Positions 6,524-33,148 of a stretch of 33,148 nucleotides of DNA are shown here, in pieces. Position numbers and translations under genes: made by a program. Position 1 is the stretch's first letter, and every line of letters starts with the position of its first letter. The notes beneath the pieces were generated by a model. It saw only the letters and a list, made by a program, of their open reading frames with translations, ran no database searches and was not told where the DNA came from. Source of the DNA: a virus. Its lineage: Duplodnaviria; Heunggongvirae; Uroviricota; Caudoviricetes. The stretch lies in the IMG/VR virus record IMGVR_UViG_2681813271_000008. One strand, written 5' to 3'.

Positions 6524-6529
6524 GGAGTC

Positions 6530-7024
6530 ATGGCCATGATGATGATCTACGGCATGTTTGTTTTTGAGCTGCGTACATTGCCGCATCAGCAGTTACAGCA
6601 AAACAAAAGCTGGCGGCATGTGAAAAATGAACGCGTTAACCGTTCGGCAAGCTGGCAGTATATCGGTGCAGGTGATGAGCGCATCGTTCTTTCTGGTGTG
6701 CTTTATCCTGAAATTACAGGTGGCGAAGTGTCGCTGTCGCTGCTGACCACGCAGGCGTATACAGGACGACCCTGGCCTCTGATTGATGGCGTCGGGCAGA
6801 TTTACGGCATGTATGTCCTGACCGAAACGAATACGACCCGCTCCGAGTTTGATCGCTACGGTAAGGCGAAAAAGATAGAATTTTCACTGACTCTTGAACG
6901 CTGTGATGAGGATTTGCGGGAGCGCCTGCAATCCTCATCGTTCAGCGATATGCTGTCCGGCTTCAAAGATAAGGTAACATCATCCCTTAACAGCGCGGCC
7001 AGTTCAGTTAAAGGGTTGTTCTGA
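6530..7024 (+). CDS. U: Tail protein U (P2 gpU-like)
   Basis: 164 aa ORF immediately after the tape measure; N-terminus MAMMMIYGMFVFELRTLP resembles P2 U. Confidence 0.8.
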   Translation: MAMMMIYGMFVFELRTLPHQQLQQNKSWRHVKNERVNRSASWQYIGAGDERIVLSGVLYPEITGGEVSLSLLTTQAYTGRPWPLIDGVGQIYGMYVLTETNTTRSEFDRYGKAKKIEFSLTLERCDEDLRERLQSSSFSDMLSGFKDKVTSSLNSAASSVKGLF

Positions 7025-7036
7025 TTTAACACAAAA

Positions 7037-7070
7037 ACCGCTAATGGTCAGATTAGCGGTTATTTTGTTT
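7037..7070 (+). terminator. Rho-independent terminator after U
   Basis: Stem ACCGCTAAT / ATTAGCGGT with a 6-nt loop, followed by TATTTTGTTT. Confidence 0.6.
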
Positions 7071-7134
7071 CCTGACTCTTCTCTATTGTTCCGATTGATT
7101 CTCCTGCGGGGTGGTAACGATAAATCGTCGATAT

Positions 7135-7454
7135 NNNNNNNNNNNNNNNNNNNNNNNNNNNNNNNNNNNNNNNNNNNNNNNNNNNNNNNNNNNNNNNNNN
7201 NNNNNNNNNNNNNNNNNNNNNNNNNNNNNNNNNNNNNNNNNNNNNNNNNNNNNNNNNNNNNNNNNNNNNNNNNNNNNNNNNNNNNNNNNNNNNNNNNNNN
7301 NNNNNNNNNNNNNNNNNNNNNNNNNNNNNNNNNNNNNNNNNNNNNNNNNNNNNNNNNNNNNNNNNNNNNNNNNNNNNNNNNNNNNNNNNNNNNNNNNNNN
7401 NNNNNNNNNNNNNNNNNNNNNNNNNNNNNNNNNNNNNNNNNNNNNNNNNNNNNN
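7135..7454. other. Assembly gap (320 N) inside the invertase locus
   Basis: Run of N read directly. Confidence 1.
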
Positions 7455-7612
7455 ATTAATTCCTCGCTCCCGTAGTTCCCCGACGAGAGAAATCAGATGT
7501 TTCATGCTTCGCCCGAGGCGATCCAGTTTCCAGACAACCAGCGTGTCACCTTTTTGAAGGCGCTTTAAAGCGCGTTTTAATCCCGGTCGGTCTGTCTTTG
7601 TCCCGCTTAATT
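7455..7612 (-). CDS. Serine DNA invertase (Gin/Cin/Pin family), internal fragment between N-runs
   Basis: Translation [52 protein letters not shown] matches my recollection of Mu Gin residues about 34-85; flanked by N gaps on both sides. Confidence 0.8.
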
Positions 7613-7792
7613 NNNNNNNNNNNACGTGCTGCGGCATAATCCCAATGATTACTCCCTGACAGGGTTCGTAGGCCACTCAATATCAGGTGCAGTTGATGTA
7701 TCAACACGGTTCAGCAACACCCGATACTTTTTCTAGGCTTCCACCACCAGCACGACAAGATGCCGCATACAGTGACCCAGTCAGTCCAGTTT

Positions 7793-7975
7793 TCAGACAA
7801 CCAGTGCGTCACCTTTTTGAAGGCGCTTTAAAGCACGTTTTAATCCAGGTCGGCCTGTCCTTGTTCCGCTTAATTTATCTTCAAATATTTGTTCATATCC
7901 TGCACAAACAAGAGCGTTTCGTTGCAGGTCTGTATTCTGGTCATTTGTTGATACCCTTACATAGCCAATCAGCAC
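7793..7975 (-). CDS. Serine DNA invertase N-terminal fragment (catalytic-serine region), prematurely terminated
   Basis: From a GTG start after [65 protein letters not shown] then a stop; unrelated sequence follows. Confidence 0.8.
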   Translation of the reverse strand: MLIGYVRVSTNDQNTDLQRNALVCAGYEQIFEDKLSGTRTGRPGLKRALKRLQKGDALVV

Positions 7976-8029
7976 GCTGAATCTCCCGTCCAAAAGCGCA
8001 AATCATGCCATGCAGGCCGGAAACGGCCA

Positions 8030-8055
8030 TTATCTAAAACCTCGGTTTACAGGAA
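8030..8055. other. gix-like inversion crossover site (left)
   Basis: TTATCTAAAACCTCGGTTTACAGGAA closely resembles the Mu gix site as I recall it, and is an inverted copy of the site at 11452..11477. Confidence 0.75.
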
Positions 8056-9066
8056 ACGGTAAACAAGGCTGGTAACGCCGTGCAAAAAAATGGCGATACG
8101 TTGTCCGGTGGACTTACTTTTGAAAACGACTCAATCCTTGCCTGGATTCGAAATACTGACTGGGCAAAGATTGGGTTTAAAAATAATTCGGATGCAGACA
8201 CCGATTCCTACATGTGGTTTGAAACAGGCAACAACGGCAATGAATATTTCAAATGGAGACACCGCATCATTGGCACCCGGCCTAAAGACCTGATGAATCT
8301 TAAATGGAATGCTTTGTCTGTTCTTGTTGAAGCCCTTTTCAGCAGTGAAGTGAAAATATCGACAGTCAATGCACTGAGGATATTTAATTCATCTTTTGGT
8401 GCCATTTTTCGTCGTTCTGAAGAATGCCTGCATATCATCCCTACACGAGAGAATGAAGGGGAAAATGGTAATATAGGGCCACTACGCCCCTTTACGCTTA
8501 ATCTCAGAACTGGCCGGATAAGCATGGGGCATGGTCTTGATGTTACAGGGGATATATTTGCAAACCGTTTTGCAATTAACAGTAGTACCGGCATGTGGAT
8601 TCATATGCGTGACCAGAATGTTATTTTGGGACGTAATGCGGTATCCACTGATGGTGCTCAGGCTTTGCTCCGTCAGGACCATGCCGACCGCAAATTTATG
8701 ATTGGCGGTCTGGGAAATAAGCAATTTGGCATCTACATGATTAATAACTCAAGGACAGCCAATGGCACCGATGGTCAGGCGTACATGGATAATAACGGGA
8801 ACTGGCTTTGCGGCTCGCAAGTTATTCCCGGCAACTATGGCAATTTTGATTCCAGATATGTGAAAGATGTTCGACTTGGTTCACAGCAATATTATGGAGT
8901 GAACAACTGGCAAACATGGAATTTTCAGTGCCCGTCAGGCTATGTACTGACGGGGATTAACGTACAGGATACCGGAAAAAACTCTGCCGATAATATTGCA
9001 GGCGTTCATTACAGGCCAGTGCAAAAGTATATAAATGGCACTTGGTATAATGTGGCGAGTATTTAA
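8038..9066 (+). CDS. Alternative tail-fibre C-terminal (variable) cassette, promoterless, in-frame with the crossover site
   Basis: Frame is open from 8038 through the crossover core codons LGL; ORF track calls 8080..9066. Shares [13 protein letters not shown] and INGTWYNV motifs with the C-terminus of H. No independent N-terminal domain. Confidence 0.75.
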
Positions 9067-9488: not shown

Positions 9489-9495
9489 NNNNNNN

Positions 9496-18019: not shown

Positions 18020-18093
18020 NNNNNNNNNNNNNNNNNNNNNNNNNNNNNNNNNNNNNNNNNNNNNNNNNNNNNNNNNNNNNNNNNNNNNNNNNN
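18020..18093. other. Assembly gap (74 N) between L and M
   Basis: Run of N read directly. Confidence 1.
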
Positions 18094-21031: not shown

Positions 21032-22849
21032 ATGATTCAGGACGCTTTTGTGCGCCAGCGTGCGCGGCAACTTTACTGGCAGGGTTATCCGCCCGCAGAA
21101 ATATCACGTCTGATGGGAATAAACCCGAACACGATTTATGCGTGGAAAAAACGCGACCAGTGGGATGAAACGCCACCCGTGCAGCGTGTCACGCAGTCCA
21201 TCGATGCGCGCCTCATCCAGCTTACTGAAAAACAGAATAAAACAGGTGGTGACTTTAAGGAAATAGANNNNNNNNNNNNNNNNNNNNNNNNNNNNNNNNN
21301 NNNNNNNNNNNNNNNNNNNNNNNNNNNNNNNNNNNNNNNNNNNNNNNNNNNNNNNNNNNNNNNNNNNNNNNNNNNNNNNNNNNNNNNNNNNNNNNNNNNN
21401 NNNNNNNNNNNNNNNNNNNNNNNNNNNNNNNNNNNNNNNNNNNNNNNNNNNNNNNNNNNNNNNNNNNNNNNNNNNNNNNNNNNNNNNNNNNNNNNNNNNN
21501 NNNNNNNNNNNNNNNNNNNNNNNNNNNNNNNNNNNNNNNNNNNNNNNNNNNNNNNNNNNNNNNNNNNNNNNNNNNNNNNNNNNNNNNNNNNNNNNNNNNN
21601 NNNNNNNNNNNNNNNNNNNNNNNNNNNNNNNNNNNNNNNNNNNNNNNNNNNNNNNNNNNNNNNNNNNNNNNNNNNNNNNNNNNNNNNNNNNNNNNNNNNN
21701 NNNNNNNNNNNNNNNNNNNNCGATGTGGAGCTGAAAGGGGGCGATAAAATCATCCTCTCCAACGGCGCAGAGATGCATTTTCTCGGCACTTCTGCTGCGA
21801 CGGCGCAATCTTACACGGGCAATTTTTATTTTGATGAATTTTTCTGGGTCAGTCGCTTTGCTGAACTGCGCAAGGTGGCTGGCGCTATGGCAACCCTCAG
21901 CGGACTGCGGCGCACCTGCTTCTCCACGCCATCCACCGAAACGCACGAGGCATACGCCTACTGGAACGGCGACCGCTGGAACGAGAAAAAGGCCGCGCAT
22001 AAACGCCAGCGTTTTTCTGTGGACTGGAAAACGCTGCATAACGGGCTTATCTGCCCTGACCGGACGTGGCGGCAAATTGTCACGCTGGAAGATGTGGTTA
22101 ATCACGGCTGGAAACACACCGATATTGATGAAATTCGTGATGAAAACACCGAAGACGAGTTCCGCAATCTCTATATGTGTGAGTTTGTCCGCGAAGGGGA
22201 ATCGGCATTTAACCTGAATATCCTGATTGGCTGCGGTGTTGACGGATACGACGACTGGAAAGACTGGAAACCCTTTGCCCCCCGCCCGATGGGGAATCGT
22301 CCGGTATGGATTGGGTATGACGCAAACGGCAGCAGTGGTAACGGCGACAGCGGCGCTGTGTCCGTGGTGGTTCCTCCGGCTGTTCCTGGTGGTCGTTTCA
22401 GAACGGTGGAGACGCGACGCGTTCAGGGGCTGGAATTTGAAGAGCAGGCCAGAGTTATTGAAGAGTTCACGTATCGCTACAACGTGGAACACATCGGCAT
22501 TGATGCGACGGGAGGGCACGGGGATGCCGTCTATCAGATAGTGAAACGGTTTTTTCCCGCCGCCATCCCTTACACCTTCACGCTGTCATCAAAACGGTCG
22601 CTGGTACTGAAAATGCTGCAAATAATGCGTGCCGGGCGGTGGGAATACGATCGCGCCGAACGCGAGCTGGTTGCGGCCTTTAACGCCGTGCGTAAGGTGA
22701 AAACACCGGGCGGTTTTATCACTTACGAAACGGACCGCGCGAGGGGGATCAGCCACGGCGACCTTGCGTGGGCAACCATGCTTGCTGTCATTAACGAACC
22801 GATTGGCGGCGAAGGAGAAAACGAGCGTTTCACGGTTATGGAGTTCTGA
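21032..22849 (+). CDS. P: Terminase large (ATPase) subunit P (P2 gpP-like), interrupted by a 453-N gap
   Basis: 605-codon frame open across the N-run; N-terminal and C-terminal parts present; divergent from O as in P2. Confidence 0.8.
   Translation: MIQDAFVRQRARQLYWQGYPPAEISRLMGINPNTIYAWKKRDQWDETPPVQRVTQSIDARLIQLTEKQNKTGGDFKEIXXXXXXXXXXXXXXXXXXXXXXXXXXXXXXXXXXXXXXXXXXXXXXXXXXXXXXXXXXXXXXXXXXXXXXXXXXXXXXXXXXXXXXXXXXXXXXXXXXXXXXXXXXXXXXXXXXXXXXXXXXXXXXXXXXXXXXXXXXXXXXXXXXXXXXXXDVELKGGDKIILSNGAEMHFLGTSAATAQSYTGNFYFDEFFWVSRFAELRKVAGAMATLSGLRRTCFSTPSTETHEAYAYWNGDRWNEKKAAHKRQRFSVDWKTLHNGLICPDRTWRQIVTLEDVVNHGWKHTDIDEIRDENTEDEFRNLYMCEFVREGESAFNLNILIGCGVDGYDDWKDWKPFAPRPMGNRPVWIGYDANGSSGNGDSGAVSVVVPPAVPGGRFRTVETRRVQGLEFEEQARVIEEFTYRYNVEHIGIDATGGHGDAVYQIVKRFFPAAIPYTFTLSSKRSLVLKMLQIMRAGRWEYDRAERELVAAFNAVRKVKTPGGFITYETDRARGISHGDLAWATMLAVINEPIGGEGENERFTVMEF
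21268..21720. other. Assembly gap (453 N) inside terminase P
   Basis: Run of N read directly. Confidence 1.
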
Positions 22850-23895
22850 TGAGCAGAAAAAATAAAAAAGTGCGCATGAGTTCACGCATTGATCTCGCTG
22901 ATGCGCTCAGGAAAGAATCGTCGCTCAGTGCATTCACATTTGATGGTCCTTACCGCCTGACCGGGCATGACCTGCTGGACAATATGTACTGTGCTGATAA
23001 CGGGCGGTGGTATGAAACCCCGGTGGACTGGTACGGTCTGGCAAGAGCTGCCCGGCAAACGTCCTGGCATCAGTCTGCGCTTTACTTTAAGCGCAATGTA
23101 TTGCTCGGCTGCTATATTCCGCACCCGCTGCTTTCCCGGCAGGATTTCTCGGCGCTGGCGCTGGACTGGTTTGTGTTCGGTAACGCATTCCTTGAGCTTC
23201 GGAGCAATATGCTCGGCGAACCGCTTAAATTACGGCACGCCCTGGCGAAATACATGCGACGCGGAAGCGATCTTGAATCATGGTGGTATGTGCAGGATGG
23301 CAAGGATGCGTTTCAGTTTCGTCCTGGCAAAGTGTGCCACCTGATGAATCCGGATATTAACCAGGAAATCTACGGCATGCCGGAATATCTTGGCGCATTA
23401 CTCTCGGCCAGCCTTTCTCATTCGGCGGACATGTTCAGAAAACTGTACTACGACAACGGATCCCACGCCGGGTGCATCATCTACATCGGTGCAGCGCAGG
23501 TAAACCGCGAAAGCATGGACTCCCTGAAAGAAACGCTACAGGGGGCACGTGGTGGTGGTGCGTTTAAAAACGTGCTCATTCATGCGCCCAACGGGGGCAA
23601 AGAGGGGGTGCAAATTTTGCCGTTCCAGCAGATCACCGCAAAGGATGAGTTCATGAATGTTAAGGCGGCATCCCGTGATGATGTGCTGGCTGCGCACCGC
23701 GTTCCGCCGCAACTGATGGGGGCGATGCCGGGCGAAAAAAGTGCGTTTGGTGATGTGGAGAAGGCCGCGCGGGTTTACGCAATTAACGAGCTGATGCCCG
23801 TCATGGAGGCCATGAAGCACATCAATGACTGGCTTGGCGAAGAGGTGATCCGCTTTAACCCTTACGCACTGTTAGACACCCAGCCCACATCCTGA
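22849..23895 (+). CDS. Q: Portal protein Q (P2 gpQ-like)
   Basis: 348 aa ORF overlapping the end of P; size matches P2 Q. Confidence 0.85.
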   Translation: MSRKNKKVRMSSRIDLADALRKESSLSAFTFDGPYRLTGHDLLDNMYCADNGRWYETPVDWYGLARAARQTSWHQSALYFKRNVLLGCYIPHPLLSRQDFSALALDWFVFGNAFLELRSNMLGEPLKLRHALAKYMRRGSDLESWWYVQDGKDAFQFRPGKVCHLMNPDINQEIYGMPEYLGALLSASLSHSADMFRKLYYDNGSHAGCIIYIGAAQVNRESMDSLKETLQGARGGGAFKNVLIHAPNGGKEGVQILPFQQITAKDEFMNVKAASRDDVLAAHRVPPQLMGAMPGEKSAFGDVEKAARVYAINELMPVMEAMKHINDWLGEEVIRFNPYALLDTQPTS

Positions 23896-24319: not shown

Positions 24320-24346
24320 TTGTGCAAATTTGTGCACTATTGTGCA
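24320..24346. repeat. Three direct TTGTGCA repeats at exact 10-bp spacing
   Basis: aTTGTGCAaa tTTGTGCAct aTTGTGCAtt read directly in the non-coding region between Q and the cargo operon. Confidence 0.7.
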
Positions 24347-24386: not shown

Positions 24387-24572
24387 CTACCACTCGATCG
24401 GCACGTAGTCATTAAGTTCCGGAGACCAATTGCACTTTTCACATCTGTGTTTTCCATTCTGGCAGATACATAAACGATAACGGCCACAATGCGGGCACCC
24501 ATTTTCACCATTATCATAATCACCGAGCGACCATTCCTGCATAAGCAGCTCTTCTTCATCATCATTTAGCAT
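24387..24572 (-). CDS. Hypothetical small Cys-rich protein (61 aa, possible zinc ribbon)
   Basis: Strong RBS AGGGGG 5 nt upstream of the ATG; acidic N-terminus, then C-x2-C-x5-C-x-C-x6-C-x2-C. Confidence 0.5.
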   Translation of the reverse strand: MLNDDEEELLMQEWSLGDYDNGENGCPHCGRYRLCICQNGKHRCEKCNWSPELNDYVPIEW

Positions 24573-24586
24573 TAATCCCCCTTGAG

Positions 24587-24826
24587 CTATTTACTCTTCT
24601 CGGCCCTCAAAATCATACGAGAACCATCATCCAGCTCCCAATTAATTTCACCGCCTTCTGCCATGACTAGATGCCAAACGAGTTGAGCGGCCTCGTTGGT
24701 TACATCGCGACCGCGATCATTTCCTACGCGGCGTTTTGTTCCGTCTCCTAAGTCACGCATTTTTGCCAATACGATGGTTTTTGATAGCGGTGAAAAACCA
24801 AGCTGTAGTCGTGCTGAATTACTCAC
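24587..24826 (-). CDS. Hypothetical protein (79 aa)
   Basis: ORF whose start overlaps the stop of the upstream 174-aa ORF by 4 nt; 14 bp ahead of the 61-aa gene. Confidence 0.5.
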   Translation of the reverse strand: MSNSARLQLGFSPLSKTIVLAKMRDLGDGTKRRVGNDRGRDVTNEAAQLVWHLVMAEGGEINWELDDGSRMILRAEKSK

Positions 24827-25347
24827 TGGCTGCCCCCTTTGTACTGTGTTAACTCTTCCTGCTCCTGCATCATGCGATTGACCTGAACGCGTGTGCGTCG
24901 AACGGCAAAATTAAATTGAAACATGAGCCGGAACATTTCTGATGCTTCCGTGTGAGCATCACGGATAGGTGACAGGCGGTACAGTTCTGCCTCCGTAGCT
25001 TGTTGAATCAATGACAGATCAAATTGAAGTGCGGGTCTGGTACATTTTGCACATCTGGCAGCAAGCTCCGGTATTAGTCTCTTAACGAAGGTGTTTTGCA
25101 CCGCTTTGTTGATTTGTGTCTGCATCCAAATCGCAAATTTCAGCGAACGCATAAGTTTGATAGCCTCGGGCAGCGGCAGATAGATCATGCTGGTAGATTT
25201 GGGTGGTTGGTGAACCATCTTCACGGATACGCGATTTCGCAGCGTTCGGAAAATCGTGTTCCCAACAACAGCTTCTACGGATACAGGACAGGGAGCCAGA
25301 CCAGCCCGCAGTGCTTCTTTCATTAGCATGTATTCGTATTTTTTCAT
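24823..25347 (-). CDS. Hypothetical protein (174 aa)
   Basis: ATG preceded by GAGGAA, 60 bp downstream of parR; no family recognised. Confidence 0.55.
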   Translation of the reverse strand: MKKYEYMLMKEALRAGLAPCPVSVEAVVGNTIFRTLRNRVSVKMVHQPPKSTSMIYLPLPEAIKLMRSLKFAIWMQTQINKAVQNTFVKRLIPELAARCAKCTRPALQFDLSLIQQATEAELYRLSPIRDAHTEASEMFRLMFQFNFAVRRTRVQVNRMMQEQEELTQYKGGSQ

Positions 25348-25407: not shown

Positions 25408-25719
25408 TCATTCAGGAAATAATGCCCGGATATTCCCTGCTATCTGACTGGTTATCTGTGCGGTTGGTACTGGCTGTGGCACGGGGCGTTCTGTCCTGGT
25501 TTGTGTCACCGATAACGCCTCATCGTCAGCCCATGCAGCCAGTCGGTAAGCCTCTGCTGGATTCATTTTCAGAAGTGCCAGCCCGGCCAGAAAAGCCACG
25601 CGTTGGCCGCTTTTGCGGGCTTCTGGTGTAAGGCTGCCCAGCCAGGCGCATGCTTCGCTTTCGTTCTTGACGGCCGCAGGCTTCAGATAGAAACTTATCC
25701 GTCTGGTTGGTGTCGTCAT
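25408..25719 (-). CDS. parR: ParR-like partition adaptor (DNA-binding)
   Basis: Start ATG 25717..25719 after AGGAG, 5 nt beyond the parM stop; RRISFYLKPAAV...SGQRVAFLAGLALL resembles my recollection of R1 ParR (RRTIAFKLNPDV...NRAALTAGLALY). The longer track ORF overlaps parM. Confidence 0.65.
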   Translation of the reverse strand: MTTPTRRISFYLKPAAVKNESEACAWLGSLTPEARKSGQRVAFLAGLALLKMNPAEAYRLAAWADDEALSVTQTRTERPVPQPVPTAQITSQIAGNIRALFPE

Positions 25720-25723
25720 TGGT

Positions 25724-26683
25724 TTACTCCTTGTCCATTGCGTACAGCCCATTAACCAGAGCAAACTGTGGCACCCCGTCCGCGATGAAAGTCGCATTAA
25801 CTCCGCAGGCTTCGCGGATAGCGGGTGCCACAATCTCCGCCCCTCCACCGACAACCATCACCCGCCCGTAACCCGAAAAACCCGCCAGCGCGCGGATCAC
25901 GCGTTGTTTCAGTGTTTCTTCCTTTTCACGAATAACCGCCATCAGGCTGGCGTAATGCGCGTCATTGTGGATGTGCTGGCGCAGCCAGGCTTCATCATGG
26001 CGATGTTCGATAATGGTATTGGCGATGTGGTGACTGGTGCGCATACCGTTAGTGGCCATCACCGACAGTACGGCATCGGCCATCAGAGAAACGCCTACGT
26101 GTGGATCGCAAAACACCTGGCTGATACCTGCCAGTTGCCCCTGAACCTTTGCCACATCCAGCGTGGTTCCGCCCAAATCCACAATCAGCAGGGATTCAAA
26201 CGGACTCATGTCAGCCAGTGCCTTAAAGCCAGCCGGAATGGATTCAGGCATAACCCGCACGTTACGGATAGTGAATGCTTCGCCGTTCTGGTACTCCACC
26301 GGGCGCATAACGTTCGCTTTTTTGCGGTTGATGTTGGCCATGTCCGGCTGTGCGTTTGTGTCGAAATACTCGCTCAGTGGCAGGGTGACAACCACATCCA
26401 CCTCCTGTGGCGTGATGCCTGATTTGACCAGCGCGTGATGAATGGCAATGACATTTACATCGCTGTACTGGTATTGCGTGTCGGTTGTCTGGACAAAGCG
26501 ATCGCTGACCGGATCAAAACCATAGCGCACGCCATCAAGCATGTAGTTCGCGGGCTGCATGCCACCGAACGGCGCAGACCATTCCGACTTGAAGCTGTTC
26601 GGGCTGATGGCGTTGCGGCGTTCGCCGTTCTCAGTCCATGCCAGCTTGATGTTGGTGGAGCCGTCGTCGATACAAATTTTCAT
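25724..26683 (-). CDS. parM: ParM/StbA-like actin-type partition ATPase
   Basis: 319 aa; actin-fold motifs IDDGSTNIKL, LIVDLGGTTLD, VMVVGGGAEIV and RKKANVM; collinear with my recollection of plasmid R1 ParM along the whole length. Confidence 0.85.
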   Translation of the reverse strand: MKICIDDGSTNIKLAWTENGERRNAISPNSFKSEWSAPFGGMQPANYMLDGVRYGFDPVSDRFVQTTDTQYQYSDVNVIAIHHALVKSGITPQEVDVVVTLPLSEYFDTNAQPDMANINRKKANVMRPVEYQNGEAFTIRNVRVMPESIPAGFKALADMSPFESLLIVDLGGTTLDVAKVQGQLAGISQVFCDPHVGVSLMADAVLSVMATNGMRTSHHIANTIIEHRHDEAWLRQHIHNDAHYASLMAVIREKEETLKQRVIRALAGFSGYGRVMVVGGGAEIVAPAIREACGVNATFIADGVPQFALVNGLYAMDKE

Positions 26684-26705
26684 GTCGCTTTTCCTTATGT
26701 TGATT

Positions 26706-26827
26706 AATTAATCGTTTACGGGATTCTGAAATCCCGTTTTTGCCTGTTTTGTGCGCGCTTCATATATCGCTGCGCGTTTTTTGCTCATTTACGGGATTCG
26801 TGAGTCCCGTTTCTGTCTGTTTTTTGT
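26706..26827. repeat. Two copies of a roughly 42-bp repeat, each with a palindrome ACGGGATT-n4-AATCCCGT, upstream of parM (candidate operator / parC-like region)
   Basis: Palindromes at 26712..26731 and 26791..26810, 79 bp apart; the first overlaps a -35-like TTCAGA of the putative parM promoter on the minus strand. Confidence 0.6.
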
Positions 26828-26959
26828 TTCCACTGGTCAGGCCACCCCGCAGCAGGTCTGCTTTGCGGCGGGCGCGTTCAGTGGTTTCACTGATTCTCTG
26901 TGCGTGCTCTGCGTCGCGGATGGCGCGCAGCATGTCAGAAAGCACGGTAACGGGTGTTT

Positions 26960-29605
26960 TCATGGTGTTCTGGTCCTGCTGAAGTGTGGATGCCAGGCGT
27001 GCGGCGGCTTCANNNNNNNNNNNNNNGCGGCTTCAGGGTCTGATGCCCCCAGCTGTGTCAGATAGCTGGCGACCGGGTTATGGCGGATCTCCGTGCTGCT
27101 TACGCCATGATTACGGCTCAGGCGCTGCCAGAGCTGCGTGATTCGGCTGTCCGGGCGGGTATCCGGTTTGCGTACAATTTCAAATCCCTGCGGTGCAATG
27201 ATGCTGCCGTCAACGTACAGACTGCCGCCCCGTAACAGGTGCTGCATCTGTTGTTCACCGATATGCAGGCCGAGAGATTCAGCAGACTCCCGCCATTCTT
27301 TAGCGAGTAATTCGTGGTTATCAGGCAAAGGCCGCTGCTGTTTGCGGCTCTGTGTCCAGCTCTGCATTTCATCACTGCTGTTTTTTGCCTGTTTGTCACG
27401 AAGCGAACGCATCAGCGCCCGGCGTTCGTGCCGTTTCAGTGAGCGCATCCATTCATCCACATCAACGCCGTCAGGGAGCTGCGGCCACGGTGCTGGCCGT
27501 TCTTCCGGCTGTTCTGTCCCGTTGTTGTCCGTTTCCTGTACACGGGGACAGTTATTGCCACGAGTCCAAGGGGCGGCAGGGCCGCCCTGAAGGTCAAAAC
27601 CATTTTCGCGGGCGCTGTCTTCCGCTTCCGGTTTGCGTCTTACCAGCTTCCAGTTATCCGGATGCGTGCACACACGGGAGGATTCCCCGATGAGTGGTGA
27701 CCAGATCCCGTAAATCTGTACGCTCTGTTCGCCGTAATCGTTCAGCTCATCGGCGAGGTCGTAGGCGGTGCGAATCAGGTAGTCTTTGCGTGGAACAAGT
27801 ACGCCGCCCTGTTTCTCTATGTAGGTGGCAAAACATCCGGCATCAGCGGCGGCAAGAACCGCATCCATTGCGTCATCCTTCAGCCGTTGCGGGCCTTCCG
27901 GGTTGCGTGCCATCTGGCTGGCAAGGCGGCGCAGTTCACGCCATACCTGGCGGGAGGGGATGCCAAAGAACTGGAACTGGCGGACCCGGTGAAGGCGCGC
28001 CCAGCCGATGGCGCGTTCCACGCTCTCGGCCATTGATTTTCCGGTTTCGTGGTCAACGCGTGGCTTGCCCGTTTTCGGGTCGATGCCATCCACGGCGCGG
28101 CTGTCCAGGTTTTTCCCGATGTAGGTGGCGATGTAGCTGGTTGGCGTGCCTTTTGAGCCGTCTACATACTCCGCCTTAAAGCGCGGAGTTATGTCATCGC
28201 CCAGCTCGTGACGATCTTCCTGAATGGCAATATCGCGGGTGTGGGACACAATGGTGTCGATTTCTTCCGGATGAGCAAAGACCATCATATGCCAGTGCAC
28301 GGTGCCGTCATGGTGAGGCTCCGCCGTGCGGATGCCATACCAGCGCAGGCCGTCGCGGTTCAGTTTTTTGCGGACCGTCGCAAAAAACGTGTTAACCAGG
28401 TAATCGCTGGAGTCGCGCATTGTGGCCCCGTTCCATTTGGGATTCGGATGACCGTTCTCCGTTGTGGCGTGGTATTTTGACGGGCAGGTGACAGTCAGAA
28501 ACACCGCTTTGTCGCCACGGGCTTCGGCCAGAAGTTCCAGCCCCTTCATGGTGGCCATCATTTCTGCCTTACGGTGAACCGGGTTACTTACTCCCGCGTA
28601 ATACACCGTCTCGAGATCAATCGTGAACCCGTCTTCATTTTCCAGCATGAAACTTTTCAGGAAATCGCGTGTTTTCTCGCGCTGTGCGCGAAACTCGCTT
28701 AACGCGTCCTGGCTCAGATAGGGCGATGTTTTTCTGGAAACCAGACAGGCGGCGCGAAGTTGTTCTTCTCTCCACTCGCAACGTAACAGCCACAGTTTGC
28801 GTTTCCACCATTCCGCACAGGTCAGGCGAAGGATTGCGCCCGGCAGCAGTTCTGTGTCCGGTTCGTGCCTCCGGTCTTTGTCTGTTGTCAGTGCGTCATA
28901 ATGCGGAGGCATGGCGTGTAAGTGTAACGCCATGCGGGCCAGCATCTGATACGCCTTCAGCGTTACATCCATGGTCAGCTCGCCATCAGTCGCGCCAAAA
29001 CCATCGCAGAGTTTTTCGAAGGTGCTGCTGAACATCGCCGCCGTCATGGTGGCCAGCGTCTGTATCTGGTGTTTGTTGAGTTGCGGCAGGTAAAGCAAAT
29101 CGTCCAGGCGTTCACGTCCGGCAAGGGAGCGATAACCCGGTGTCAGCCAGTGTCCGTCAGTGCGATCCAGACGTTCGAATATTTTGCGCAGGGTTCCGCG
29201 TGCATAGCGTTCCGCCTGCCAGCTCTTTTTGCCTTTCCGGCGATCGGCTTCCTGTTTTTTGCGCAGGAAGGAGAGGTGGCGAATAAGCGGATCGCGCAGA
29301 TAGGACGGCAGCAGGCGCAGCGAGGCCATGGCTTCATCCACCGCGCCGCGTGCCTGTTTTCTGGCGTCTCCTGCCAGTGTGATGGTTTTGTCCTGTTTTT
29401 CCTGTGCGTCCAGGCTTTTATTAATCAGGTTGCCCAGTGGCGTGGCGGAGAACGCCGCATCAGCCATTTCCTGGCGGCGCTCGTTCTCTGCCCGGTGGGC
29501 ATCCAGCCAGGAGGAAAGCGCGGATTCAGGAGCGGGGATCCCCGTTCCTTCACGCCCCACTGCGTGGCGCGGTTGTTGCCAGTCCCTGATGTACTCTGCC
29601 GTCAT
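26960..29605 (-). CDS. A: Replication initiation protein A (rolling-circle, HUH endonuclease; P2 gpA-like)
   Basis: 881-codon frame; HUH-type motif in GTVHWHMMVF and tyrosine motif TSYIATYIGKN; a 14-N run lies near the 3' end, so the C-terminus is uncertain. Confidence 0.8.
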   Translation of the reverse strand: MTAEYIRDWQQPRHAVGREGTGIPAPESALSSWLDAHRAENERRQEMADAAFSATPLGNLINKSLDAQEKQDKTITLAGDARKQARGAVDEAMASLRLLPSYLRDPLIRHLSFLRKKQEADRRKGKKSWQAERYARGTLRKIFERLDRTDGHWLTPGYRSLAGRERLDDLLYLPQLNKHQIQTLATMTAAMFSSTFEKLCDGFGATDGELTMDVTLKAYQMLARMALHLHAMPPHYDALTTDKDRRHEPDTELLPGAILRLTCAEWWKRKLWLLRCEWREEQLRAACLVSRKTSPYLSQDALSEFRAQREKTRDFLKSFMLENEDGFTIDLETVYYAGVSNPVHRKAEMMATMKGLELLAEARGDKAVFLTVTCPSKYHATTENGHPNPKWNGATMRDSSDYLVNTFFATVRKKLNRDGLRWYGIRTAEPHHDGTVHWHMMVFAHPEEIDTIVSHTRDIAIQEDRHELGDDITPRFKAEYVDGSKGTPTSYIATYIGKNLDSRAVDGIDPKTGKPRVDHETGKSMAESVERAIGWARLHRVRQFQFFGIPSRQVWRELRRLASQMARNPEGPQRLKDDAMDAVLAAADAGCFATYIEKQGGVLVPRKDYLIRTAYDLADELNDYGEQSVQIYGIWSPLIGESSRVCTHPDNWKLVRRKPEAEDSARENGFDLQGGPAAPWTRGNNCPRVQETDNNGTEQPEERPAPWPQLPDGVDVDEWMRSLKRHERRALMRSLRDKQAKNSSDEMQSWTQSRKQQRPLPDNHELLAKEWRESAESLGLHIGEQQMQHLLRGGSLYVDGSIIAPQGFEIVRKPDTRPDSRITQLWQRLSRNHGVSSTEIRHNPVASYLTQLGASDPEAXXXXXXKPPHAWHPHFSRTRTP
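27013..27026. other. Assembly gap (14 N) near the 3' end of A
   Basis: Run of N; the same 9-mer GCGGCTTCA flanks both sides, suggesting overlapping contig ends. Confidence 1.
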
Positions 29606-31312: not shown

Positions 31313-31651
31313 TTATAAATCAGCCTGTTTAATAAAACTTTGCCCGCGAAGCAGACGATCAACCGTGCGAAGTGCTTCGTATAATGTGAAATCCTGCCCG
31401 AACTGATTGTCGCCACAGCTCAGTGCAAAAATGCGGTTTCCGGTAAACGGATTGCGTGGGCATTTGTGGATCACGATTCCAGCTTTCTCAATCAGCCAGG
31501 CGTGCTCGCCGATTTGTTTTACTGGGTAGCCATCCGGCGTTGCGTGTGTATCACTCAGGCTGTAGCGGATGTTGCTGCGTGATGCACTGGTAGTGAAACG
31601 GTTAGCGTGGCGTTCTGTTCCGGTACAAAAATTACGGCGTTGCTTCAGCAT
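31313..31651 (-). CDS. Hypothetical early protein (112 aa)
   Basis: ORF in the early operon; contains Cys/His residues but no motif I can assign. Confidence 0.45.
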   Translation of the reverse strand: MLKQRRNFCTGTERHANRFTTSASRSNIRYSLSDTHATPDGYPVKQIGEHAWLIEKAGIVIHKCPRNPFTGNRIFALSCGDNQFGQDFTLYEALRTVDRLLRGQSFIKQADL

Positions 31652-31665
31652 AAAATGACACCTCG

Positions 31666-31944
31666 TTATTTTGTCATCTGCACGTATTTCTCTGCGTTTC
31701 TGATGGTTTTCAGGAAAATTGCGAAGAGATTTACTTTGCGTTTTGTGTTTCTTCCTTCTTGAGTAACGGGAATTACCGATCTATCAGCCTGCCTTCTTAC
31801 AGCGAGAATGCTTTGATTTGTGCGTTTCGCATAATCCTCTAGGCTTTCTTCAAGTACCGGTAGCCCATGTTCATTACGGTATGGGTAGAACGCCGCCAAA
31901 CGCTCAAAATCCGCTTGTTCGTATGTGTTAAGGACTTTTGCCAT
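31666..31944 (-). CDS. First early-operon gene (Cox/Apl position), function unassigned
   Basis: 92 aa ORF divergent from the repressor gene across a 95-bp control region; size is similar to P2 Cox but I see no sequence similarity. Confidence 0.45.
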   Translation of the reverse strand: MAKVLNTYEQADFERLAAFYPYRNEHGLPVLEESLEDYAKRTNQSILAVRRQADRSVIPVTQEGRNTKRKVNLFAIFLKTIRNAEKYVQMTK

Positions 31945-32039
31945 GGTGTGATAACCTATTCAATCTGGTGCTATTTGTGGCTCTTTGTAGCGTCAAGTGG
32001 TACTCAACTGATAACCAATATAGTATTCAGGTGCACACC

Positions 32040-32351
32040 ATGTCAATAGAGATATCAAAGAAGCTAAAAGCAATTCGAGAATCTGAGGGGCTTAGTCAGG
32101 CAAAGTTCGCGGATTCAATAGGTATTGCGGTTGGTACGGTTAAGCAATACGAGACTGGTATTCGAGGTGTGGGAACGGAGGTTTTACTGAAAATCACAAT
32201 GCACCCGGAATTTAAAAAATACACTACGTGGTTGATGAGTAACGAAACAAATGAGGCTGCTGGGCAGATCAGTCCTTCTCTCTCCCCTGATGGGCCAGAA
32301 AACACATCGTCTTCTCAAAAATCCCGCAAGACTGGCACACAGCCCGGCTAA
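32040..32351 (+). CDS. C: Immunity repressor (P2 C-like, XRE-type HTH)
   Basis: 103 aa from the ATG at 32040; helix-turn-helix region LSQAKFADSIGIAVGTVKQYE; upstream of the integrase and divergent from the early operon. The track's longer start lacks support. Confidence 0.7.
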   Translation: MSIEISKKLKAIRESEGLSQAKFADSIGIAVGTVKQYETGIRGVGTEVLLKITMHPEFKKYTTWLMSNETNEAAGQISPSLSPDGPENTSSSQKSRKTGTQPG

Positions 32352-32400
32352 TCATGGAACGCTGGGGGCATGGTGGTCTTGTAACGCTGGGGCTTCACGA

Positions 32401-33148
32401 ATGAGCATAAAATCAATTCCGGGAGGGTATCTTCTTGACATGCGTCCTGAGGGGCGTAAAGGCAAACGCATTCGCAAAAAATTTAAAACGAAATCGGATG
32501 CAGTTTTATATGAGCGGTGGGTGCTGGCGCAACAGCATAACAATGAGTGGAAAGGAAACTCCATTGATCGCCGTCCGCTGTCAGTGCTTATTGACTTGTG
32601 GTGGAAATACCACGGCCAGCTAATGAAGTCAGGGCATAACACGCGCCTTAAATTGCTGCGCTTGAGTGAGGCAATGGATGACCCGTGCGTGCATAAACTT
32701 AATACAACGATGCTCACCGAGCTACGTGTGTCCAGGATAGAGCAGGGGATACAGCCCAGCACCATAAATCGAGAGATTGGGGCGTTAAGCGCGATGTTTA
32801 CCGCACTCATCTCATCCGGCCATTTTCTTAACGATAACCCCGTTCAAGGCCTTAAAGGAATGAAGGTTAACGAGCGTGAAATGGGATATCTGAGTAAGTC
32901 TGAATGTGTTCAGTTGCTGGATGCACTGGCTGAAAATCCCGATGAACGGCTGGCCGTCGAAATCCTTCTGTCGACCGGGGCGCGATGGGGCGAGGTAGCG
33001 GCACTGGAGCAGCGCCGTGTTCTTCATTGTCGAATCACTTTTTCAAAAACGAAGAACAGCAAAAACCGTACCGTTCCTATTTCTGAAAGCCTGTTTGAAA
33101 AGATCAAAAAACGGGGCGGGAAACTGGTGTTTCCGACGCTGGATTATT
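32401..33148 (+). CDS. int: Tyrosine integrase (P2 Int-like), 3' end outside the window
   Basis: Hand translation from the ATG at 32401 gives MSIKSIPGGYLLDMRPEGRKGKRIRKKFKTKSDAVLYERWV..., open to the end of the window. Not in the ORF track because no stop is reached. Confidence 0.8.
   Translation, partial: MSIKSIPGGYLLDMRPEGRKGKRIRKKFKTKSDAVLYERWVLAQQHNNEWKGNSIDRRPLSVLIDLWWKYHGQLMKSGHNTRLKLLRLSEAMDDPCVHKLNTTMLTELRVSRIEQGIQPSTINREIGALSAMFTALISSGHFLNDNPVQGLKGMKVNEREMGYLSKSECVQLLDALAENPDERLAVEILLSTGARWGEVAALEQRRVLHCRITFSKTKNSKNRTVPISESLFEKIKKRGGKLVFPTLDY

What the first reader, a model, noticed from the sequence alone, without database searches (positions are those of the whole stretch)
25408..26960. 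Plasmid-type ParM/ParR partition cassette inside an integrase-carrying P2-like prophage
An actin-type ParM and a ParR-like adaptor sit directly after replication gene A, where P2 carries tin/old (as I recall the P2 map). Upstream of parM are two copies of a palindrome-containing repeat, one overlapping a -35-like element, which look like an operator or centromere. A type II partition locus is unexpected in a phage that integrates. It could reflect an episomal lifestyle, a stabilisation module, or partition-mediated exclusion of plasmids sharing the centromere.
Basis: partly seen in the sequence, partly recalled or inferred. Interest (0 to 1): 0.6.

Follow-up and report, generated by a model that had tools for sequence, protein, structure and literature searches.

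The report
Partition module in P2-like prophage

Summary
On the minus strand, parM (25724-26683) and parR (25408-25719) follow replication gene A. Both are strong family members: Pfam StbA_N 3e-82 and ParM C-domain 1e-68; Plasmid_stab_B 2e-23; about 50% identity to R1 ParM. Two 20-bp palindromes lie 73 bp apart upstream of parM. The distal one is inside the 3' end of gene A. The "67-aa ORF" is A's C-terminus, split off by a masked N-run.

It is not new. The cassette is 95-99% identical in phage P88 and its relatives. It occurs in 1308 of 5426 complete E. coli genomes, and 1454 of 1456 copies are chromosomal. Rousset et al. [quoted passage not shown]

New here:
- ParM is under strong purifying selection (dN/dS about 0.08).
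- The cassette is nearly fixed in one gene-A lineage.
- Its closest ParM relatives, from Plesiomonas, Hafnia, Serratia and Enterobacter, also lie between gpA and the portal gene of P2-like prophages.
- The two-site geometry (GGG-N10-CCC twice, 72-73 bp apart) is conserved in three lineages, which argues for ParR operator/centromere sites.
- No plasmid in PLSDB shares this ParR, which argues against plasmid exclusion.

The most likely role is segregation of the phage's extrachromosomal circles. That role is inferred, not shown.

The parts
25724..26683 (-). parM: actin-like segregation ATPase, 319 aa
   Evidence: Pfam StbA_N 2.7e-82 and ParM C-domain 1.3e-68. About 50% identical to R1 ParM over the full length, E=8.5e-93, with the nucleotide-binding motifs conserved. 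99.7% identical to P88 ParM. Median dN/dS 0.08.
25408..25719 (-). parR: adaptor protein, 103 aa. N-terminal DNA-binding part (residues 1-63), hypervariable linker (64-95), invariant C-terminal tail NIRALFPE.
   Evidence: Pfam Plasmid_stab_B 2e-23. PHROG 2515 2e-56. Allele alignment A1. The C-terminal N-x-x-x-LFP motif is shared with an IncL/M plasmid ParR and with ParRs of distant P2-like phages. The AF2 monomer model has low confidence: helices at 20-29, 32-52 and 54-61, low-confidence (probably disordered) 65-85, C-terminal helix 87-100.
26718..26737 (.). Proximal palindrome ACGGGATT-CTGA-AATCCCGT. Putative ParR operator and centromere half, overlapping the -35 position of the putative parM promoter.
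   Evidence: Exact pattern match. Its position, -53 from the ATG, and the YGGGW-N8-WCCCR geometry are conserved in the Plesiomonas and Hafnia loci.
26791..26810 (.). Distal palindrome ACGGGATTCGTGAGTCCCGT, 73 bp from the proximal one, inside the 3' coding end of gene A. Putative second ParR site.
   Evidence: Spacing of 72-73 bp is conserved in three lineages.
26712..26753 (.). Proximal 42-bp direct-repeat unit containing the palindrome and its A-rich flank
   Evidence: 34/42 identical to 26785-26826.
26785..26826 (.). Distal 42-bp direct-repeat unit
26700..26708 (-). ATTAATCAA, a -10-like element upstream of the parM RBS, partly within the 12-bp palindrome GATTAATTAATC (26702-26713)
   Evidence: The same 9-mer precedes the RBS in the Plesiomonas and Hafnia loci, where ParM is only 62-63% identical. 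It did not pass the consensus promoter scan.
26760..29605 (-). Replication gene A (rolling-circle initiator). Its reading frame is broken by the masked N-run at 27013-27026, which makes its last 67 codons look like a separate ORF.
   Evidence: Pfam Phage_GPA 5.5e-131. The 67-aa ORF matches PHROG 6857 positions 789-855. Collinear with P88 A, 5957-8779.
24387..25347 (-). Three co-oriented cargo ORFs downstream of parR: 174 aa with no family hit, 79 aa DUF7446, 61 aa zinc-ribbon-like. This is the variable part of the hotspot and is not part of the par module.
   Evidence: This stretch differs from P88 and most relatives.
24322..24337 (-). Terminator-like hairpin followed by a T-run after the last cargo ORF. 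Possible end of the transcription unit.
   Evidence: a consensus scan only.

Best explanation
This is a complete type II (ParMRC-type) DNA-segregation module. It belongs to a branch of the family that travels with P2-like phages, and it is nearly fixed in the P88/Xuanwuvirus lineage, next to that lineage's gene A.

Proposed mechanism:
1. ParR dimers bind the two GGG-N10-CCC palindromes, which are 73 bp apart.
2. The proximal site covers the -35 position of a weak parM promoter, so ParR also represses the operon.
3. The flexible linker presents the conserved C-terminal tail (N-x-x-x-LFP) to ParM.
4. ParM filaments capture ParR-bound DNA and push copies apart.

The substrate is the phage's extrachromosomal circular DNA. 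That form exists after infection or excision, when gene A-driven rolling-circle replication makes monomeric circles. Segregation would distribute copies to both cell halves or daughters, so the element is not lost while it is off the chromosome. This is the logic shown for srpMRC of SXT/R391 ICEs. In the integrated prophage the module would be idle or autorepressed.

Shown here: the identity of both proteins, their conservation, and the conservation of the site architecture. Inferred: ParR binding to the sites, ParR-ParM contact, and the biological role.
For: Identity.

Functional constraint: median ParM dN/dS is 0.08. ParR N-terminus is 0.34. The linker ranges from about 0.4 to 1.

Sites: there are two exact palindromes and chance is excluded. 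The same two-site geometry, 72-73 bp spacing and proximal position (-53 to -60) occur in the E. coli, Plesiomonas and Hafnia loci. The inner 8 nt have diverged there and the hairpins are weak, -3 to -7 kcal/mol, with no T-tails. That pattern fits protein-binding sites rather than RNA hairpins.

ParR ends: the putative beta-strand segment RRISFYLKP and the C-terminal tail are invariant across alleles that differ by about 46% overall. The tail motif is also present in a true IncL/M plasmid ParR.

Linkage to the replication module: this A allele occurs in 1322 genomes and the cassette in 1278. The gap is 76 bp in every locus aligned.

Phage association: all four ParMs with 54-63% identity that I examined lie between Phage_GPA and the portal gene in P2-like prophages. 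ParMs at 52% or below are next to plasmid Rep genes. In the tree, the E. coli + Plesiomonas + Hafnia clade has 100% bootstrap support.

Expression: the scan found no terminator-like site on the coding strand between A and parM, and only a weak promoter is present. This is compatible with expression together with the early replication operon.

Precedents: srpMRC stabilises an integrating element (PMC4489591). AlpAC acts on excised prophage DNA (PMC4446434).

Episome: one complete E. coli assembly holds a whole P88-like phage as a 34.5-kb circular replicon.
Against: - No experiment exists for this module in the literature I could search.
- 1454 of 1456 copies in complete E. coli genomes are chromosomal, so any episomal phase is transient or rare.
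- The single 34.5-kb 'plasmid' record starts exactly at the att core. It may simply be an excised form or an assembly-graph loop.
- The centromere has only two sites. R1 parC has about ten iterons (my own knowledge, not checked here).
- The ParR fold prediction has low confidence.
- A lytic role, in which the module organises replication or packaging, would fit the same data.
Confidence: 0.5

Rival explanations
1. Lytic-cycle organiser. ParMR positions or spreads the replicating phage circles during productive infection, as AlpAC does for CGP3. In this reading it raises replication or packaging efficiency and does not serve inheritance.
For: The scan found no terminator-like site on the coding strand between gene A and parM, and only a weak promoter match, so the genes may be read with the early lytic operon. 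AlpA and AlpC are early-induced and are needed for efficient CGP3 replication (PMC4446434). The cassette is linked to a specific replication-initiator allele.
Against: ParM here is an R1-type protein (about 50% identity). The known activity of that type is bipolar pushing of paired plasmids, which is my own knowledge. There are no data on burst size. P2 itself and other P2-like phages do without the cassette: Rousset et al. report it in only about a quarter of E. coli P2-like phages.
Confidence: 0.2
2. Facultative plasmid-prophage. These phages can persist for long periods as low-copy plasmids, and ParMRC is their maintenance system, as speculated by Rousset et al. 2022.
For: The speculation is published (PMC9122126). 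pZ1323PEC0009-2 is a circular 34,461-bp replicon carrying a whole P88-like genome including int. The phage-plasmid D6 uses a ParM that is 48% identical.
Against: Only 2 of 1456 copies in complete genomes are on plasmid records. No intact attP was found in any other record. The only recognisable replication initiator in the window is gpA, which drives rolling-circle replication from the repressed early operon in P2 (my own knowledge), and I found no plasmid-type copy-control module in the ORFs examined. Integrase and repressor are retained.
Confidence: 0.12
3. Incompatibility or exclusion device. The prophage-borne ParR and centromere interfere with the partition of plasmids or incoming related phages that share the centromere.
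For: The cassette lies in the gpA-gpQ hotspot, which is rich in exclusion and defence genes. ParR has several alleles.
Against: No plasmid in PLSDB encodes this ParR apart from 7 records that match the same phage-type cassette, and none matches the centromere region at blastn sensitivity. There are no PADLOC hits. The DNA-reading N-terminus and the sites are the most conserved parts, which is not what diversifying specificity would produce. The cassette is fixed in one A lineage and is not shuffled like hotspot cargo.
Confidence: 0.05
4. The palindromes are intrinsic terminators for antisense (+ strand) transcription, not ParR sites.
For: On the + strand both palindromes form 8-bp stems of about -10 kcal/mol followed by T-rich tails, and they top the terminator scan.
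Against: The scanned stretch shows no promoter-like site on the + strand upstream that they would serve. One of them lies inside the coding sequence of A. In the Plesiomonas and Hafnia loci the same positions keep GGG-N10-CCC and the 72-73 bp spacing but lose hairpin stability (-3 to -7 kcal/mol) and the T-tails.
Confidence: 0.08
5. Decaying relic of a plasmid-phage recombination with no current function.
For: None beyond the lack of experimental data.
Against: ParM dN/dS is about 0.08. Both ORFs are intact in all 11 loci analysed, and the cassette is widespread in E. coli genomes. Divergent orthologues occupy the same position in four other genera.
Confidence: 0.02

Closest known systems
The same cassette in Escherichia phage P88 and other Xuanwuvirus-type P2-like phages; Rousset et al. 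2022, P2 gpA-gpQ hotspot
   Same: 95-99% nucleotide identity over parM, parR and the upstream region, with the same A-76 bp-parM junction. GenBank and RefSeq already name the genes 'plasmid segregation protein ParM' and 'plasmid partitioning/stability family protein'. The paper reports the system in about a quarter of E. coli P2-like phages.
   Different: Only the cargo downstream of parR, the immunity/integrase module and the tail-fibre region differ from P88 and the other relative compared.
ParMRC of plasmid R1 (type II partition)
   Same: ParM is about 50% identical over the full length, with the same ATPase motifs. The gene order is sites-parM-parR. ParR belongs to the same Pfam family.
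   Different: The ParRs are too diverged for pairwise detection: there is no PDB sequence hit and no PLSDB plasmid ParR hit. The phage ParR is short, at 103 aa. The centromere is two palindromes 73 bp apart in a 76-bp gap plus the end of gene A. R1 parC is an array of about ten direct iterons (my own knowledge). The host replicon is an integrating phage.
srpMRC of SXT/R391 integrative conjugative elements (PMC4489591)
   Same: An actin-type partition system on an element that normally sits in the chromosome. [quoted passage not shown] It was shown to reduce loss of the excised, replicating form, which uses a relaxase for rolling-circle-type replication.
   Different: SrpM and SrpR are only distantly related to R1 ParMR, and SrpR has no ParR homology. 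Here the ParM is a close R1 relative. The element is an ICE, not a phage.
AlpAC of Corynebacterium prophage CGP3 (PMC4446434)
   Same: An integrated prophage encodes an actin-like protein and an adaptor. The adaptor binds sites in its own promoter region and links circular phage DNA to the filaments.
   Different: AlpC is a distant actin-like protein. The gene order is adaptor first (alpAC operon). The demonstrated role is efficient replication after induction.
StbA/StbB of the phage-plasmid D6 (P1-like)
   Same: ParM is 48% identical. The ParR N-terminus is 35% identical over 49 aa. The D6 annotators noted similarity to P88 StbA.
   Different: D6 is a plasmid prophage. Its upstream region is about 266 bp long and, by my reading, carries many short repeats.

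Membership tests
Type II (ParMRC) partition system | Actin-fold ATPase of the ParM/StbA family | tested here: met
   StbA_N 2.7e-82 and ParM C-domain 1.3e-68, both far above the gathering scores. E=8.5e-93 to R1 ParM structures.
Type II (ParMRC) partition system | Intact nucleotide-binding and hydrolysis motifs in ParM | tested here: met
   IDDGSTNIK, MPESIPAG, DLGGTTLD and GGGAE align identically or near-identically with R1 ParM. dN/dS is about 0.08.
Type II (ParMRC) partition system | Small adaptor (ParR) encoded immediately downstream of parM | tested here: met
   A 103-aa ORF starts 4 nt after the parM stop. PF10784 Plasmid_stab_B 2e-23, cut-off 25 bits, score 82.
Type II (ParMRC) partition system | Ribbon-helix-helix DNA-binding N-terminus in ParR | tested here: inconclusive
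   The AF2 monomer model has pLDDT 57. It shows helices at 20-29 and 32-52 after an unmodelled N-terminal segment whose sequence, RRISFYLKP, is invariant. This is consistent with beta-alpha-alpha, but a dimer was not modelled and there is no PDB sequence hit.
Type II (ParMRC) partition system | C-terminal ParR tail that contacts ParM | not testable with these tools
   The extreme C-terminal N-x-x-x-LFP motif is invariant in 18 phage alleles and is shared with ParRs from an IncL/M plasmid and from distant P2-like phages. A C-terminal helix is predicted at 87-100. Binding was not tested.
Type II (ParMRC) partition system | Repeated ParR-binding sites (parC) upstream of parM, overlapping its promoter | tested here: inconclusive
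   Two palindromic sites are present, are non-random, and have an architecture conserved in three lineages. Binding is untested, and the promoter match is only 8 of 12.
Type II (ParMRC) partition system | R1-style array of many direct iterons | tested here: not met
   There are only two sites in about 115 bp, and the intergenic gap is 76 bp. By my reading of the sequences printed, the D6 and IncL/M parM upstream regions are about 240-270 bp long and carry many short repeats.
Type II (ParMRC) partition system | Stabilises a low-copy replicon | not testable with these tools
   This needs a plasmid-stability assay.
P2-like phage (Peduoviridae, P88/Xuanwuvirus type) | P2-type gene set and order (GPD, sheath ... 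terminase, portal | hotspot | GPA ... cox, C, int) and high identity to P88 | tested here: met
   Pfam GPA, portal, GPD, integrase and HTH repressor. 88-97% nucleotide identity to P88 and relatives over the early region and 95-99% over the cassette.
P2 gpA-gpQ variable hotspot (old/tin locus) | Located between replication gene A and portal gene Q, next to cos | tested here: met
   A ends at 26760, and Q is at 22849-23895. The locus definition is from PMC9122126.
Known anti-phage defence systems | Match to a defence-system protein model | tested here: not met
   No PADLOC hit for ParM, ParR or the three downstream ORFs.

The most novel reading that the evidence does not exclude
A large, old branch of 'integrating' P2-like phages across Enterobacterales has a genuine plasmid-like phase. 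A phage-specific ParMRC with a minimal two-site centromere, partly embedded in the replication gene, would be required to inherit or distribute the monomeric circles made by gpA. These phages would then be facultative phage-plasmids, and loss of the module would measurably lower lysogen establishment or prophage retention.
Probability: 0.2. Interest if true: 0.55.

Novelty: already known. Interest (0 to 1): 0.25.

Why it matters
As an observation it adds nothing new. The genes are routinely annotated, and the presence of the system in about a quarter of E. coli P2-like phages is published with the same hypothesis.

What stays open is why a phage that lysogenises by integration keeps a strongly conserved actin-type segregation machine next to its replication gene. 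A direct test in P88 would be a knockout combined with a stability assay. It would show whether transient episomal phases of integrating prophages are actively partitioned, as they are for SXT/R391 ICEs. This branch, with only two putative sites and a 103-aa adaptor, could also serve as a small ParMRC model.

Tried and rejected
- Literature searches for a functional study of ParMR in P2-like phages found only annotation-level mentions and the one sentence in Rousset et al.. Word-start matching of 'ParM' mostly returned 'Parma' and 'Parmley' noise.
- The PDB sequence search for ParR found nothing. NCBIfam gave only sub-threshold ParM hits.
- tblastn of ParR against plasmids found only 7 records that match the same phage-type cassette. 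I therefore dropped the shared-centromere plasmid-exclusion idea.
- PADLOC gave no hits, so I dropped the defence-system reading.
- I tested for episomes with an attP-spanning query built from the 34.5-kb 'plasmid'. The result was uninformative for that record, because the record is linearised exactly at the att core, and no other record showed an intact attP.
- The AF2 model of monomeric ParR was too poor for a fold search, so I ran none.
- The genome-contig scan with the ParR alignment returned only three species representatives. Distant relatives had to be reached through ParM instead.
- I considered the terminator reading of the palindromes and judged it unlikely on comparative grounds.

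Full report
WHAT IS THERE

All genes in the region run on the minus strand.

parM lies at 25724-26683 and encodes 319 aa. It matches Pfam StbA_N (E=2.7e-82) and the ParM C-terminal domain (E=1.3e-68). It matches PHROG 691 'partition protein'. It aligns end to end with the solved R1 ParM structures (E=8.5e-93, about 50% identity), and the nucleotide-binding motifs are conserved.

parR lies at 25408-25719 and encodes 103 aa. It starts 4 nt after the parM stop. It matches Pfam Plasmid_stab_B, the StbB/ParR family (E=2e-23), and PHROG 2515.

Upstream of parM are two exact copies of ACGGGA-N8-TCCCGT, at 26718-26737 and 26791-26810. Allowing one mismatch, the window has 3 matches where 0.04 are expected by chance. 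The palindromes sit in 42-bp direct-repeat units that are 34/42 identical and 73 bp apart.

CORRECTIONS TO THE ANATOMY

The 67-aa ORF at 26760-26963 is not a separate gene. It matches the last 67 positions of the gpA PHROG. It is base-for-base collinear with the end of gene A of phage P88. The apparent stop at 26960 is produced by a masked 14-N run at 27013-27026, which lies in a short tandem-repeat region where the window is 23 bases longer than P88.

Gene A therefore ends at 26760. The A-parM gap is 76 bp, and the distal palindrome lies inside A's coding sequence.

The window is a P2-like prophage. It has GPD, portal, GPA, an HTH repressor and a tyrosine integrase, and the integrase is cut by the window end.

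IS IT ORDINARY? YES

- The cassette is 95-99% identical in phage P88, Xuanwuvirus P884B11, Citrobacter phiSM and several other P2-like phages, where it is already annotated as parM and a partition protein.
- Among 50,697 phage records, tblastn finds this ParM type only in those phages and, at 48% identity, in the phage-plasmid D6.
- It occurs in 1308 of 5426 complete E. coli genomes. Of 1456 copies, 1454 are chromosomal, and all but one listed row lie beside 'replication endonuclease'.
- Rousset et al. 2022 define the gpA-gpQ region as a hotspot, the locus where P2 has old and tin. [quoted passage not shown] Their tables list StbA + Plasmid_stab_B arrangements.
- The phiSM paper lists the gene only as a 'fitness' gene (PMC6456863).
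- I found no functional study.

WHAT THE ANALYSIS ADDS

(1) The module is under selection. Median pairwise dN/dS is 0.08 for ParM. It is 0.34 for the ParR N-terminus, and from about 0.4 to 1 for the ParR linker.

(2) ParR comes in alleles that differ by up to about 46%, while ParM stays 98-99.7% identical. The invariant parts of ParR are the N-terminal segment MTTPTRRISFYLKP, helix 2, and the extreme C-terminal motif NI[RQ]x[LFM]FP. The AF2 monomer model has low confidence, but it places helices at 20-29, 32-52 and 54-61, a low-confidence and probably disordered 65-85, and a C-terminal helix at 87-100. The same C-terminal N-x-x-x-LFP tail ends an IncL/M plasmid ParR and the ParRs of distant P2-like phages. 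From memory, the ParM-binding helix of R1 ParR is also at its extreme C-terminus. I treat that as a lead, not a test.

(3) The cassette behaves as backbone, not as shuffled cargo. The linked A allele is found at 80% or greater coverage in 1322 genomes and the cassette in 1278. The junction is 76 bp in every locus aligned. The genes downstream of parR vary.

(4) The association with P2-like phages is old. The nearest ParMs outside the E. coli group come from Plesiomonas (63%), Hafnia (62%), Serratia (58%) and Enterobacter (54%). All of them lie between Phage_GPA and the portal gene, each followed by a Plasmid_stab_B gene. ParMs at 52% identity or below sit next to plasmid Rep genes. In an NJ tree, the E. 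coli + Plesiomonas + Hafnia group has 100% bootstrap support and Serratia + Enterobacter has 98%. All phage ParMs together have only 56%.

(5) The two-site architecture is conserved. The E. coli, Plesiomonas and Hafnia loci each have two YGGGW-N8-WCCCR sites 72-73 bp apart. The proximal site lies at -53 to -60 from the ATG and is followed by a shared ATTAATCAA and the RBS. The inner 8 nt differ between lineages. In the two distant lineages the hairpins are weak (-3 to -7 kcal/mol) and have no T-tails. The E. coli sites resemble antisense terminators (about -10 kcal/mol with T-rich tails). Conserved arms and spacing without conserved hairpin stability fit protein-binding sites. The Serratia/Enterobacter clade uses a different, long-range inverted repeat.

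(6) The adaptor is specific to the phage lineage. tblastn of ParR against 72,556 plasmids finds only 7 records, all of which match the same phage-type cassette. No plasmid matches the centromere region at blastn sensitivity.

HOW IT MOST LIKELY WORKS

By homology this is a ParMRC machine. ParR would bind the two sites, and the proximal site would occlude the -35 position of a weak promoter. My best hand match to a promoter is 8 of 12, and the scan found none with 9 or more of 12. The ParR tail would recruit ParM filaments, which push ParR-bound DNA molecules apart.

The scan found no terminator-like site on the coding strand between A and parM. Expression with the early replication operon is therefore plausible.

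From my own knowledge, P2-type replication yields monomeric circles, which are plasmid-like substrates. The best-supported role is therefore segregation or distribution of the phage's extrachromosomal circles after infection or excision. This parallels srpMRC, which reduces loss of the excised, replicating SXT/R391 ICE and also has a small centromere (PMC4489591).

A lytic, AlpAC-like role (PMC4446434) fits the same data nearly as well.

A stable plasmid-prophage lifestyle is less likely. Almost all copies are integrated. The one 34.5-kb circular 'plasmid' that is a whole P88-like phage is linearised exactly at the att core, which suggests an excised form or an assembly loop.

Plasmid exclusion, defence and relic readings are disfavoured.

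VERDICT

The feature is already known and routinely annotated, and only its biological role remains untested. Interest is low to moderate.

Noticed in passing
window 27013-27026: A masked 14-N run sits inside gene A, in a CCTGAAGCCGC-type short tandem repeat where the window is 23 bases longer than P88. It breaks the A reading frame and creates the spurious 881-aa and 67-aa ORF pair.
   Followed up: yes
window 7135-7454, 7613-7623, 9489-9495, 18020-18093, 21268-21720: Five further masked N-runs. The last one lies inside the large terminase gene. ORF calls across them are unreliable.
   Followed up: no
window 24387-25347 (-): The variable hotspot cargo downstream of parR has three ORFs. A 174-aa ORF has no hit in Pfam, NCBIfam, PHROGs or PADLOC. 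A 79-aa DUF7446 gene shares 80-91% nucleotide identity with unrelated lambdoid, Yersinia and Salmonella phages and looks like a mobile moron. The third is a 61-aa zinc-ribbon-like ORF (phrog_24897).
   Followed up: partly
window 25408-25719; loci L004-L011: ParR exists as several alleles with a hypervariable linker of about 30 residues and conserved ends. The adjacent ParM stays 98-99.7% identical, which makes a sharp divergence boundary about 18 codons into parR.
   Followed up: partly
L002 (NZ_CP148288.1, pZ1323PEC0009-2): This 34,461-bp circular 'plasmid' in a complete E. coli assembly is an entire P88-like phage with integrase. The record is cut exactly at the att core, next to where chromosomal copies join pdxB-side DNA.
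   Followed up: partly
L009 (NZ_JBQPOM010000071.1): A 226-kb contig labelled Vagococcus sp. carries this Enterobacteriaceae-type P2-like cassette, with ParR 91% identical. It is probably a contaminant or a mislabelled contig.
   Followed up: no
window 31615-33148: The repressor/integrase end of the window has no megablast match to P88 or to the 34.5-kb episome, although the early genes next to it match at 88-97%. The immunity/integration module is mosaic.
   Followed up: partly
L016 7450-8084; L017 7411-8757: In the Serratia and Enterobacter P2-like prophages, the genes right after parR are a HicAB toxin-antitoxin pair and a KAP-family NTPase. These are likely hotspot defence or addiction cargo.
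   Followed up: no
proteins P0164, P0189: ParMs about 50% identical to the window's ParM that cluster with the R1/plasmid group in the NJ tree lie on contigs of 4 to 6 Mb in Mangrovibacter and Dickeya. Other chromosomally integrated elements may therefore also carry type II partition genes.
   Followed up: no
L001 (P88) 34928-35068; L002 1291-1431: P88-type phages also carry a Hok/Gef family toxin gene near ogr, outside this window. This is a second plasmid-style stabilisation element in the same phage lineage.
   Followed up: no
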